Assembly: GCA_025497365.1 (NCBI GenBank)
Contig: GCA_025497365.1_4955.1
Direction: 5' to 3' (one strand)
Length of the DNA: 57,325 nt
Source: a phage
Below, in pieces: positions 18,001 to 21,000 of this stretch. A program made the position numbers. Every line of letters begins with the position of its first letter. Within the stretch, counting starts at the first letter, position 1.

Positions 18001-21000
18001 TGAAGTTCTTCGCCAGTTCACCGTTTTTCTTTTTAGCGCGGTATGCAAGACGATATTTCAACATAACGTGTATTTTACCAGACGTCAGACCGAAACACTG
18101 ATTATCCCAGCCAACTTTATCAAACAGGTTAGTGCTGACTTCCGAACCTACTGGTACTTTTTCCATCAGACGTTTTTGAAGTTCGTCACCAACTTTTTTC
18201 ACACATTACGCGTACCTCGATAGTCGTCTTAATTTAACGATCAACCTTGTAACTTTACTCCAGTCAGATTCAGTAAAGTCGTCCACATCTTTAGCTCATA
18301 ACTCATTAACATGTCGTGGGTTATATGGTTCTTTCTTGACGGGCTGTTTCCGTTTCTTTTTACCCATAGGTTATTCCCATTTTCACACCCTCGTTCATAA
18401 GCAACCCATCGCTGCTCCCCGTGATAAAGATACCCCACCGCTTGTAATCCGTCAAGAATTATTTTAAAGATACAGCTAATACAGAACGTGTACTAACTGC
18501 ACATATTTCTACATAGGTTTCATGATTTTGAGTTGCAGCTAATACAGAACGTGTATTAGTAGATCATAGATTCATAGATTTCGTCATGTTTATTTTTTAA
18601 CCAACCTCTCTCTATCTTATTCTTTTTATTATCTTTTTATAATAAACATAATAAACATAGATAAATAGAAGAGTAGTATAAGTAGTATAAGTTGCTGCAA
18701 GTAGGAGAGGTTTAAAAGGTATAGGGAGTCGCATACTTCCCATGAATCTATACGTAAAATAATTCTTGACGGATTACACCGACACAACTACCCTGTGGTT
18801 AAGAAAACAAGAAGGGTTGAAGGTATGGATCCGAACATCAGAGTTGCTACAGACGAATTCATTCGTCGCTCCCGTAAAGTTCACGGTGATCGTTACGACT
18901 ACTCATTCAGCATTGTTGAAGATAGTTCCAGCACAGTGGTTATTATTGACTGTGAAACTAACACAGTGTTTTTCCAGGTTGTCGCTGAACATCTGGACGG
19001 TGTTGAACCATTAACGACTGCTGTTGAACCGGTAACGACTGCTGTTGAACCGATCAAGAATCTTTCTGAGATATTCGGTAACGTTGTAAACAGTGTGTAT
19101 CACCAGTGCAATTATTCATCTGAAATGTTAGAATTTAGTCATGTTGAAACAATACGAGGACAATCCCCGTGATTAACGTAAAAGTTAATAAAGTTGACAA
19201 CTCACTACGTATGGTATTCGGTTGGGGTAGTATCTGTAAAAAACGTAATCAGGAGACAGGTCAGTTAGAAATTTACACAGACACGGACAACGAACAATTT
19301 CCCGAGGATGTCACTCTGAAAGCATGGTTGGACTTCATGAATTCTGATCAGCGCATCATGGACAATATGCACAATGAACAACCTGTTGGGAAAGTTGTGT
19401 TTGCGTTCCCGATGACTGAAGACATTGCGGCAAGTTTTGGGCTGGTTGATAAACTGGATCAGACAGGCGTCATTGTTGGTACGTTGATAACTGATGACGA
19501 AGTTTTGAAAAAGTTTCAGACTGGTGAATATACGGGATATAGTATCGGTGGAACTGCATATTATGAGGATGTGGAATAATGCGTACAGATGGTACTAATC
19601 ATTTACGCCGCGCTAAATCGATGAAGATCGGTTTTCTGTCCGGCGTGACAAAACCTGCTCACGATGGAGCAAATGCTCTTGTTCTTAAATCACATTCAGA
19701 ACCGCCTGCTGTTGTTCTTTTAAAGTCAACATTCAGTGCAGCACTGGCTGAAAAAGAACTTGAACAGAAAGTTCGTGATTTCCTCTCTAATTCGTGGATG
19801 TTGAACGATGCGCTTTATGAAGCAGCAGAGGATATTGCAAAAGATGATTCTGTTACCGATAAACAAGCAGCATTGCGTGACGCGGTAAATGAATATATTA
19901 TAACGTTGCAACAGGCCGCTGGTATTTCGATGAATAAAGCGAAAGGTGGTAAAACTGAAGGCGGTGAAGTTTTCCCGGCATCTGATTATGCATATGTACC
20001 AGATCCAGAAAAACCTTCAACCTGGAAACTTCGTTTAACAGCTACCCCTGGCGGTGAACCTGATGCGCGTATTGTAGGCGCTGCACTTGCTGCATTAGGT
20101 CCGGGTTATCGCGGTAACAAAGTTGAAATCCCTGAAGCCGATTTAGCAGGTGTGAAAAACAAAGTCCGATCCGCGTGGAAAAAATTACACCCGGACCAGG
20201 AAGTACCTCAAGTTTTAAAAACGGCAGAGGAAATCGAAATGTCCGAACTGGAACTGGAAAAATACAAAGCCCTGGCTGAGATGAACGACGTCCATAAGGC
20301 GTATCATAATTCTCTGCCTGAATCTGATCAGGAAGCATTCCGTAAAATGGATGCGACTGCTCGCGATGCCCTCGTGACGATGGCTAAACAGGCTGATGAA
20401 TCGTTTACCACGATTGCGGGTCAGGTTGTTCAGAAATCTGTAGCTGGTCCGATGTATGACGTTCTGAAATCTCAGGACGAACAACTTCGCAAAGCACAGA
20501 CTGAAGCGGCACTGGCGAAAGCTAAAGAAACCGTGAACGCTGATTTCGCACACATTCCGGGTGAAATGGTACAGAAAACCCAGATGGTCATGACTCTTGA
20601 GCGTTTGCCGGAAGCGGATCGTAACTTCCTGGTTGAAAAACTCAAACAGGCCGACGAACTCTGGAAAGCACGTAAAGAACCAGCCGCGCCGAACGGCAGT
20701 GGTAAAGGTTCCAGTGCACTGGAAGACATGATCAACGAATGGCTGAAAGCAAATCCGGGTAAAACACGCACCCAGGCTATGCAGGCCGTTTCTGCAACTA
20801 AAAAAGGTCAGGAAGCAATCGAAGCGATGCGAGGTGACGAATAATGGCTAAGAACAGCAAAATCTACTGGAACTATGAGCGCCCGACCCGTGCCGTTGCA
20901 TCCGTGGCTATTTCGGCAGGTGTTGGTCTTGTTCTGGATACCAGTTTAGGTGACACTAACCAGTGTGTACCTAAATACAAACTCCCAACGGCTGGAGGTC

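What the first reader, a model, noticed from the sequence alone, without database searches (positions are those of the whole stretch)
18825..19172. Solo copy of the HGDRYDYS repeat domain with a 21-bp tandem repeat
The N-terminus of this product resembles one unit of the triplicated domain in the T5orf172-like protein 9 kb away, so the domain has spread within the genome. The gene also carries 2.6 copies of a 21-bp repeat encoding VEPLTTA/VEPVTTA.
Basis: seen in the sequence. Interest (0 to 1): 0.35.

Follow-up and report, generated by a model that had tools for sequence, protein, structure and literature searches.

The report
Zinc-less homing-endonuclease fragment with variable repeat
A small phage gene just upstream of the head-assembly genes is a leftover DNA-binding module of a selfish homing endonuclease: it has lost its nuclease and its zinc-binding residues, and it carries a 21-bp in-frame repeat whose copy number runs from 1 to 10 among related phages, which makes it a tidy but fairly ordinary case of selfish-gene decay.

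Summary
ORF 18825-19172 (+, 115 aa) has an N-terminal 54 residues homologous to each of the three DUF723 units of the DUF723x3-T5orf172 homing endonuclease at 27632-28543 (-) (BLASTP E 6e-13 to 8e-11). It also carries 2.5 copies of a 21-bp repeat (19001-19052).

The interpretation "the domain has spread within the genome" is not supported. The same-genome units rank only 101st-128th of 295 DUF723 units from unrelated phages. The full endonuclease is patchy among relatives, whereas the solo gene is fixed.

The window is an E. coli 9NA-like siphophage. The solo gene is a lineage-specific insert of about 350-450 bp. It has its own copy of the phage's canonical promoter and sits immediately upstream of the XkdF-like prohead-protease gene, with stop and start overlapping (GTGA). 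Salmonella and Klebsiella relatives lack it.

The gene has no nuclease domain and has lost the zinc ligands, which 93% of the extracted DUF723 units keep. Its 42-aa tail is an orphan. Substitution counts show relaxed constraint (omega about 0.3-0.6, against 0.03-0.09 for the neighbour).

The repeat is a genuine in-frame VNTR: 98 orthologue clusters carry 1-10 VEPVTTA heptads.

Best reading: a decaying, post-fixation homing-endonuclease relic. Less likely: a CapR-like exapted module. Interest is low to moderate.

The parts
18443..18466 (-). Canonical phage promoter element for the leftward small-gene cluster (-35 TTGACG, 17 nt, TATCTT); left arm of a perfect 24-nt inverted repeat
   Evidence: the repeat finder I1. 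Promoter scan found TTGACG-17-TATCTT. The element is conserved in 9NA, Sasha, Carvaje and KP13-27. It is one of 14 copies of this element in the window.
18755..18794 (+). Second, inverted copy of the canonical promoter element (TAAAATAATTCTTGACGGATTACA; -35 TTGACG 18766-18771, 17-nt spacer, -10 TACCCT 18789-18794); it ends 47 nt upstream of the solo gene's ATG
   Evidence: 100% complementary to 18443-18466. Fits the family pattern TTGAC-17-TAnnnT seen at all 14 copies. Present in all 7 E. coli-clade phages aligned. Absent from this position in 9NA, Sasha, Carvaje, phi_KPN_H2 and KP13-27. Promoter function is inferred, not shown.
18809..18816 (+). Shine-Dalgarno-like AAGAAGGG, 8 nt before the ATG
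   Evidence: Read directly from the sequence; invariant in 7 relatives.
18825..19172 (+). Solo ORF, 115 aa: DUF723-like module, then heptad repeat, then orphan tail
   Evidence: Intact in 20 DNA orthologues and in 98 protein clusters.
18840..19001 (+). Degenerate DUF723/CapR-type module (residues 6-59). The helix and three strands are kept. The zinc ligands are lost: CPxH has become [C/R]ETN, and the CxxC knuckle is missing.
   Evidence: BLASTP. The custom profile hit, E 1e-16, covers profile positions 11-63 of 74. AlphaFold pLDDT is 63-87 over residues 1-60. Foldseek against BFVD hits T5orf172, GIY-YIG and 'endonuclease' proteins. C43 is R in most orthologues.
19001..19052 (+). 21-bp in-frame tandem repeat (VNTR). 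There are 2 full VEPxTTA heptads (19002-19043), followed by the partial unit VEPI.
   Evidence: TRF. Copy number is 1-10 in orthologues. The unit occurs nowhere else in the window.
19044..19169 (+). 42-aa C-terminal tail with no detectable relatives. The last codons (RGQSP, stop) run across the native ribosome-binding region of the downstream gene.
   Evidence: phmmer against 1.84 billion representatives found only its own family. pLDDT is below 50. No DUF723 signal in any frame. Alignment to 9NA-type phages resumes at 19155-19170.
19169..19579 (+). XkdF-like prohead protease gene (GTG start). Its SD GAGGA (19156-19160) and its start codon lie inside, or overlap, the end of the solo ORF (GTGA).
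   Evidence: PF14550, E 9e-8. Sequence read. Strong purifying selection: pN/pS 0.03 and 0.09.
27632..28543 (-). Free-standing homing endonuclease, 303 aa. DUF723 units lie at 28346-28543, 28145-28345 and 27944-28144; the T5orf172 nuclease-type domain lies at about 27659-27925.
   Evidence: Patchy among relatives.
28771..28791 (-). Copy of the canonical promoter element upstream of the full endonuclease gene

Best explanation
The solo gene is the remnant of a DUF723-type homing-endonuclease gene. It carries its own copy of the phage's standard sigma70-type promoter. It became inserted between the divergent promoter region and the XkdF-like prohead-protease gene in the ancestor of the E. coli-infecting branch of 9NA-like phages.

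Only the first about 54 residues of one DNA-binding module survive. The nuclease domain is gone, all or nearly all zinc ligands are gone, and the position of the second zinc knuckle is occupied by a slippage-prone 21-bp repeat followed by an orphan tail that reads into the neighbour's ribosome-binding site.

It therefore cannot cut DNA. By analogy with CapR, it most probably cannot bind DNA in the zinc-dependent way of its family.

It is fixed in the lineage and no longer mobile, it evolves under relaxed constraint, and its repeat expands and contracts in frame (1-10 heptads) by replication slippage or unequal recombination. That places it at the degeneration stage of the homing cycle.

It probably persists because the lineage is young (no more than about 4% divergence). 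It may also persist because it now supplies the promoter-proximal first cistron of the head operon, with its stop codon overlapping the protease start.

Shown: homology, missing domains and ligands, lineage-specific insertion, fixation, copy-number polymorphism, relaxed substitution pattern.

Inferred: origin from a full-length endonuclease at this site, lack of function of the protein, promoter activity, translational coupling.
For: Homology of residues 6-59 to DUF723 units.

The fold agrees with viral T5orf172, GIY-YIG and endonuclease proteins.

No nuclease or any other Pfam, NCBIfam or PADLOC domain.

Zinc ligands are lost, whereas 275 of 295 reference units keep both knuckles. The remaining Cys43 is Arg in most orthologues. 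In CapR, the four Cys are required for DNA binding (PMC8096241).

DUF723, CapR and DUF4397 are the repeated DNA-binding modules of T5orf172 homing endonucleases, and they recombine between repeats (PMC10448857).

The gene is absent from 9NA, Sasha, Carvaje, phi_KPN_H2, KP13-27 and four IMG/VR relatives, where the protease gene follows the intergenic region directly. It is present at the same place in all E. coli-clade genomes.

Substitution pattern: pN/pS 0.33 against 0.03 for xkdF; site counts of 17 synonymous to 27 non-synonymous changes give omega 0.48-0.63, and neutrality is only marginally rejected (p 0.015-0.09).

The tail is an orphan.

The interval is visited by T5orf172 endonucleases in relatives (KP13-27 and PDP46). 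The full endonuclease in this window also sits behind a copy of the same promoter element.
Against: No genome was found with an intact endonuclease at this site: there were 0 joined places in 50,697 phage records and none among the IMG/VR relatives. In-situ decay is therefore inferred, not observed.

The ORF is open in every one of 98 clusters and 20 DNA alleles, with no frameshift and no nonsense codon. Omega is below 1. Both facts are also what a functional small protein would show. With the observed number of substitutions, only about 1-2.5 nonsense changes would be expected under neutrality, so this argument is weak either way.

The conserved promoter, Shine-Dalgarno sequence and stop/start overlap look like an integrated gene rather than debris.

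Stand-alone DUF723-like proteins of 73-136 aa exist in other viruses (phrog_4605), so the gene may never have been attached to a nuclease.
Confidence: 0.5

Rival explanations
1. Exapted module. The nuclease-less DUF723 fragment is a working small protein. By analogy with the satellite protein CapR, it could be a regulator acting on the divergent promoter region or head operon. Alternatively it could be a decoy or immunity factor that shields the site from related homing endonucleases, with the variable heptad linker tuning reach or spacing.
For: It is a stand-alone module next to the capsid operon, like CapR, which represses a capsid operon (PMC8096241, PMC10448857). It has its own canonical promoter and Shine-Dalgarno sequence. 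The ORF is intact in all alleles. Omega is below 1. The N-domain is still predicted to fold.
Against: All four zinc ligands that CapR needs for DNA binding are absent or polymorphic. 93% of the extracted DUF723 units keep them. The tail is low-confidence and an orphan. Constraint is far weaker than on the neighbour. Linker length is essentially unconstrained at 1-10 units.
Confidence: 0.25
2. Moron-type acquisition of a small protein that was never a nuclease. On this reading a stand-alone DUF723-like gene with its promoter was picked up from another phage, and it has some unrelated role, for example in head assembly, because of where it sits.
For: Short stand-alone DUF723-like proteins exist (BFVD hits of 73-136 aa; phrog_4605). 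The promoter-plus-gene cassette structure is seen here, and another such cassette (a Rha-domain gene) is inserted at the same spot in relatives.
Against: No relative of the full-length protein exists outside the clade. There is no similarity to any head or scaffold family. The module stops exactly where the second zinc knuckle should be, which looks like truncation or disruption rather than design.
Confidence: 0.15
3. One reading: the solo unit is a recent intragenomic copy of one unit of the 303-aa endonuclease 9 kb away.
For: Significant protein similarity, and one 59-nt stretch of 80% DNA identity.
Against: The own-genome units rank 101-128 of 295. Identity is only 38-45%. Relatives that lack the endonuclease (AVIO78A, PDP46) still have the solo gene.
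Confidence: 0.04
4. The 21-bp repeats are DNA-level sites (iterons, operators, or an endonuclease target or decoy), and the ORF across them is incidental.
For: The 21-bp period equals two helical turns; the units are near-perfect.
Against: The unit occurs nowhere else in the window. The repeats always lie in frame inside a conserved ORF. 9NA-type relatives have no such element, so it cannot be a family-wide ori or pac site.
Confidence: 0.03

Closest known systems
DUF723 (PF05265) / CapR-homology (PF21817) / DUF4379 zinc-finger DNA-binding modules of T5orf172 homing endonucleases (Barth, Dunham & Seed 2023, PMC10448857)
   Same: It shares the N-terminal helix motif (T-x-E-F-I-x-R-x-x-x-H-G-D-x-Y-D-Y-S) and the following strands. 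It shows profile-level homology (E 1e-16) and fold-level matches to such endonucleases.
   Different: Only one module is present instead of the usual tandem arrays. There is no nuclease domain. Both zinc knuckles are lost. In my scan, Pfam's own DUF723 model does not reach E 0.1 on this allele.
CapR of the Vibrio cholerae PLE satellite (Netter et al. 2021, PMC8096241)
   Same: It is a stand-alone protein derived from the DNA-binding part of a T5orf172 homing endonuclease, and it is associated with a phage capsid operon.
   Different: CapR is encoded by a satellite, keeps the CxxC...CxC zinc finger, and needs it for DNA binding and repression. The solo protein is encoded by the phage itself, lacks those residues, and has no demonstrated activity.
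Degenerate or truncated free-standing homing-endonuclease genes of phages (the invasion, fixation, degeneration, loss cycle; general knowledge of T4-type seg/mob genes and of the Goddard-Burt model)
   Same: It is intergenic between conserved essential genes, lineage-specific, fixed within the lineage, has lost its catalytic part, and shows relaxed constraint.
   Different: The ORF is still intact everywhere. It has a conserved promoter and start/stop overlap with an essential gene. It has also acquired an in-frame VNTR.
Intragenic in-frame VNTRs that encode Pro/Thr/Val-rich linkers (general knowledge)
   Same: The units are perfect head-to-tail repeats of a length divisible by three, with copy-number polymorphism among near-identical genomes.
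   Different: It is found in a small accessory gene of a virulent phage and not in a surface or tail-fibre protein. No phenotype is linked to copy number.

Membership tests
DUF723 (PF05265) domain family | Match to the family profile above the curated threshold | tested here: inconclusive
   Pfam hmmscan gives no hit at E <= 0.1 for the window's allele. However, precomputed Pfam tags PF05265 on about 20 orthologue clusters. A custom profile of 295 units hits residues 6-59 at E 1e-16, and BLASTP to bona fide units gives E 6e-13.
DUF723 (PF05265) domain family | Zinc-ribbon/treble-clef ligands (C-P-x-H/C ... C-x-x-C) in each unit | tested here: not met
   The solo copy has [C/R]-E-T-N in place of C-P-x-H and has no CxxC; the profile match ends at position 63 of 74. 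275 of 295 reference units keep both knuckles.
T5orf172 / GIY-YIG-type free-standing homing endonuclease | Nuclease domain (T5orf172/MUG113) C-terminal to the DNA-binding modules | tested here: not met
   No such domain in the 115-aa product. The tail has no relatives and no signal in other frames.
T5orf172 / GIY-YIG-type free-standing homing endonuclease | Patchy presence and absence among close relatives (mobility) | tested here: not met
   The gene is present at the same position in all 6 close phage records, 5 IMG/VR contigs and 98 clusters. The full endonuclease at 27632-28543 is patchy, as expected.
CapR-like domesticated DNA-binding protein | Stand-alone endonuclease-derived module without a nuclease | tested here: met
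CapR-like domesticated DNA-binding protein | Four conserved Cys that are required for DNA binding | tested here: not met
   The requirement itself is from PMC8096241.
CapR-like domesticated DNA-binding protein | Sequence-specific binding in a capsid-operon promoter region and repression | not testable with these tools
   This needs EMSA and reporter assays.
In-frame VNTR | Head-to-tail units of a length divisible by 3 | tested here: met
   TRF reports period 21, 2.5 copies, 93% matches.
In-frame VNTR | Copy-number polymorphism among otherwise near-identical alleles | tested here: met
   There are 1, 2, 3, 4, 5, 6, 8 and 10 full heptads among 94 parsed clusters; protein lengths run from 108 to 171 aa in steps of 7. 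The DNA is confirmed in 20 loci.

The most novel reading that the evidence does not exclude
The fragment is not debris. On this reading it is a zinc-independent, exapted DUF723 module that a virulent phage uses on its own genome, for example to modulate its canonical promoters or head operon, or to block cleavage by roaming endonucleases. The hypervariable heptad linker would then behave like a contingency locus that tunes this activity between strains.
Probability: 0.12. Interest if true: 0.6.

Novelty: new member of a known kind. Interest (0 to 1): 0.3.

Why it matters
It gives a clean, datable snapshot of what happens to a homing-endonuclease gene after it is fixed in a phage lineage. The catalytic domain and metal ligands are lost, an in-frame microsatellite-like repeat appears, and the remnant is wired into an essential operon.

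The 1-10-copy VNTR is a ready-made strain marker for E. coli 9NA-like phages, which include therapy candidates and the BASEL phage Bas82.

If the protein turned out to be active, it would be a phage-encoded parallel to the satellite repressor CapR, and it would show that the DUF723 scaffold can work without zinc. Otherwise the finding is ordinary.

Tried and rejected
(1) A second, degenerate DUF723 unit in the tail. Several tblastn and BLASTP alignments run on into the tail in the register of a second unit (TTAVEPIKNLSEIFGN against TTEEFIKKAKEIHGD). However, the custom profile gives E 0.15-0.19, and Smith-Waterman scores are matched by 13-20% of shuffles. This remains an unproven lead.

(2) The tail as a frame-shifted remnant. 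No DUF723 signal appears in any of the six frames.

(3) Remote relatives of the tail. phmmer against 1.84 billion representatives found only its own family, plus one 16-residue match to a 4030-aa protein, which I take to be spurious.

(4) Structural neighbours in the PDB. There is nothing at E <= 0.001 by fold and nothing by sequence.

(5) An intact endonuclease at the same locus. The chimeric endonuclease+XkdF tblastn query gave 0 joined places in 50,697 phage records. IMG/VR relatives show only an empty intergenic region. The metagenome scan returned just one further orthologue.

(6) An RNA hairpin masking the protease ribosome-binding site. It is weak: -8.8 kcal/mol, z -1.3.

(7) An intragenic 'terminator-like' hairpin at 18949-18967. 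By my reading of the alignment, the T-to-C change that most relatives carry in the stem would disrupt it.

(8) An invariant 3' end. The last 84 nt are invariant in 7 genomes, but variation appears with 20 genomes and in the protein clusters, so this was not pursued.

(9) Stronger protection of DUF723-conserved positions among orthologues. There are too few sites to tell.

(10) The antisense ORF 18899-19057 (52 aa). I found nothing to support it as a gene.

(11) The repeats as DNA sites elsewhere in the genome. There are none.

(12) NCBIfam and PADLOC. Nothing was found for the solo protein.
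Full report
**What is there.** The window is a 9NA-like siphophage of E. 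coli. The region 17600-19700 is 95-97% identical to Escherichia phages AVIO78A, KarinMuster_Bas82, PJ16, PDP46 and to 'Sashavirus' 536P12 and BDX09P1. It is only partly similar to Salmonella phages 9NA and Sasha and to Klebsiella phages.

The finding's coordinates hold an ORF, 18825-19172 on the + strand (115 aa, ATG). It lies between a cluster of small minus-strand genes and the XkdF-like prohead protease gene 19169-19579 (PF14550). That gene is followed by the scaffold and major-head genes. The head-morphogenesis (Mu F-like) gene lies at 16747-17706.

**The observation checks out.** Tandem Repeats Finder reports 19001-19052, period 21, 2.5 copies, encoding VEPLTTA-VEPVTTA-VEPI. The protein 9 kb away (27632-28543, minus strand, 303 aa) is three DUF723 units plus a T5orf172 domain and belongs to phrog_681 'endonuclease'.

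BLASTP of the solo product against it gives three hits of residues 4-59, one per unit, with E 6e-13, 3e-11 and 8e-11 at 38-45% identity. None of 2000 shuffles comes near the observed score. A profile I built from 295 DUF723 units of unrelated phages hits residues 6-59 at E about 1e-16.

**What kind of copy it is.** The profile match covers positions 11-63 of 74 and stops just before the second zinc knuckle. In the genuine units the ligands are C-P-x-H and C-x-x-C. The solo copy has C-E-T-N, and Cys43 is Arg in most orthologues. In place of the CxxC knuckle it has the heptad repeat. Of the 295 reference units, 275 keep both knuckles.

There is no nuclease domain and no other Pfam, NCBIfam or PADLOC match. 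AlphaFold gives a moderately confident N-domain (pLDDT 63-87; helix 3-23 and three strands) and a low-confidence remainder (below 50 from residue 65). Against predicted viral structures, the model matches T5orf172, GIY-YIG and 'endonuclease' proteins, and also some stand-alone proteins of 73-136 aa (E 4e-4 to 1e-2; local rmsd 1.1-1.5 A over about 50 columns). The PDB gives nothing.

The 42-aa tail has no relative among 1.84 billion representative proteins except its own family. It shows no DUF723 signal in any frame. Several pairwise alignments continue into the tail in the register of a second unit, but this is not statistically supported.

**A lineage-specific insert.** In 9NA, Sasha, Carvaje, phi_KPN_H2, KP13-27 and four IMG/VR relatives, the protease gene follows a roughly 330-400-bp intergenic region directly. 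Alignment shows that window 18378-18721 and 19155/19170 onward have counterparts in those phages. About 385-450 bp in between do not, apart from a short 5'-UTR motif, GTGGTTAA.

The native Shine-Dalgarno sequence of the protease gene (GAGGA, 19156-19160) and its start lie inside the end of the solo ORF. The last codons and the stop of the solo ORF are therefore supplied by local sequence, and stop and start overlap (GTGA).

**Its own promoter.** Upstream, 18755-18778 is a perfect inverted copy of 18443-18466. This element, AATAATTCTTGAC[G/A]GATTACA followed after 17 nt by TAnnnT, occurs 14 times in the window where 0 are expected. It is evidently the phage's standard sigma70-type promoter.

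The left copy (the leftward promoter) is conserved across the whole family. The right copy, ending 47 nt before the solo ATG, is found only in the E. coli clade. The full endonuclease gene also has such a copy upstream (28771-28791). Promoter activity is inferred, not shown.

**Fixed, not mobile.** The solo gene is at the same place in all six close phage records, in five IMG/VR contigs and in 98 protein clusters, mostly from phage contigs of about 55-58 kb. By contrast, the full endonuclease is present in four of the six close phages and absent from AVIO78A, PDP46 and the Salmonella phages. Its protein is only 75-87% identical among carriers.

The same-genome DUF723 units rank 101st, 109th and 128th of 295 in similarity to the solo module. 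The two genes look like separate acquisitions from the large DUF723 endonuclease pool.

The interval is visited by such elements in relatives. KP13-27 and PDP46 share a CapRx3-T5orf172 gene (79% identical) just downstream of the head-morphogenesis gene. Two metagenomic relatives carry a Rha-domain gene, with its own promoter copy, inserted directly upstream of the solo gene.

**The repeat is a real VNTR.** Orthologues are 108, 115, 122, 129, 136, 143, 157 and 171 aa long. That corresponds to 1, 2, 3, 4, 5, 6, 8 and 10 full heptads, with counts of 1, 38, 34, 10, 6, 3, 1 and 1 among the parsed clusters. The DNA was confirmed in 20 loci. There, multi-unit blocks with shared variants (GCT/ACT, CCA/CCG, GTA/ATA) show expansion by slippage or unequal recombination. 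The flanks are at least 90% identical throughout. The 21-mer occurs nowhere else in the window.

**Selection.** Pairwise Nei-Gojobori counts over seven phages give pN/pS 0.33 for the solo gene, 0.03 for xkdF and 0.26 for the start of the next gene.

Site counts in 20 alleles give ratios of 0.46 (N part) and 0.38 (C part), against 0.09 for xkdF. They total 17 synonymous and 27 non-synonymous changes outside the repeat. With transition bias allowed for, omega is 0.48-0.63 and neutrality is only marginally rejected (p 0.015-0.09).

No nonsense or frameshift allele was seen. However, only about 1-2.5 nonsense changes would be expected under neutrality, given nonsense fractions of 2.4-3.6%. The open frame is therefore weak evidence for function.

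**Interpretation.** The literature identifies DUF723, CapR and DUF4397 as the repeated zinc-finger DNA-binding modules of T5orf172 homing endonucleases. It shows recombination between their repeats, and it shows that such modules can be co-opted (PMC10448857). For CapR, the four cysteines are required for DNA binding and for repression of a capsid operon (PMC8096241).

The solo gene shares with CapR the stand-alone state and the neighbourhood of a capsid operon, but it lacks those ligands. The best-supported reading is a post-fixation relic of a homing-endonuclease cassette. It is nuclease-less, zinc-less, under relaxed constraint and indel-prone. It may be kept because the lineage is young and because the gene is now the promoter-proximal first cistron of the head operon.

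I put this reading at about 0.5. A CapR-like exapted function gets about 0.25. A never-nuclease moron with another role gets about 0.15. Intragenomic duplication and DNA-level repeats get less than 0.05 each.

The main gap is that no genome with an intact endonuclease at this site was found.

**Verdict.** This is a new member of a known kind (homing-endonuclease-derived fragments). Its useful extra is the 1-10-copy in-frame VNTR. Interest is about 0.3.

Noticed in passing
window 1523, 3922, 6074, 12110, 14332, 15474, 18443, 26827, 28771, 46968, 47031 (- strand); 18758, 51834, 54279 (+ strand): There are fourteen copies of a 21-nt element, AATAATTCTTGAC[G/A]GATTACA, where 0 are expected by chance. 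Each is preceded by TTTAA and followed after 17 nt by TAnnnT. This looks like a genome-wide family of near-identical sigma70-type promoters with an A/T-rich upstream part.
   Followed up: partly
window 28715-28791 (-) versus 14276-14352 (-): The promoter plus about 60 nt of 5'-UTR upstream of the full homing endonuclease is nearly identical to that upstream of ORF 13941-14285 (-; 114 aa, no Pfam hit). This looks like a duplicated promoter-leader cassette.
   Followed up: no
L185:893-1498 and L189:926-1498 (metagenomic relatives): A gene of 190-201 aa (Rha domain plus a region with weak coiled-coil-type Pfam similarity) sits directly upstream of the solo gene and has its own copy of the canonical promoter element. 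The solo gene then starts MIA/MIV. The spot appears to be a hot-spot for promoter-bearing cassettes.
   Followed up: partly
L008:80-1000 (Klebsiella phage KP13-27) and L190:1276-2196 (Escherichia phage PDP46): A CapRx3-T5orf172 homing endonuclease (307 aa, 79% identical between the two phages) sits on the minus strand right after the head-morphogenesis gene. It is absent from this window, so it is a second, different endonuclease roaming the same interval.
   Followed up: partly
window 27632-28543 (-): The full DUF723x3-T5orf172 protein is only 75-87% identical among the four relatives that carry it, while the region as a whole is 90-93% identical at the DNA level. It is absent from AVIO78A, PDP46 and Sasha. 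This suggests fast-evolving or exchanged alleles.
   Followed up: partly
window 44228-44415, inside ORF 44086-45015 (-): There is a large nested tandem repeat (periods 30, 60 and 78 nt; up to 100% matches) inside a gene whose product matches the Enc34 ssDNA-binding protein family (PF10991, E 8e-6). This is a second in-frame repeat array in the genome. Copy-number variation was not examined.
   Followed up: no
window 19169-19579 (+): The XkdF-like prohead protease gene is annotated 'DNA methyltransferase' in several public records (9NA, Sasha, Bas82), and its best PHROG is phrog_1530 'DNA methyltransferase', matched only at profile positions 235-355 of 379. This is probably an annotation carried over from fusion proteins.
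   Followed up: no
window 19169-19210 (+): The first about 13 codons of the protease gene differ between phages with the solo gene (V-INVKVNKVDNSLRM, GTG start) and those without it (M-IEVKVNKVDPQLRM, ATG start). The rest of the protein is 90-94% identical to those relatives. This could be a junction or co-conversion footprint of the insertion.
   Followed up: no
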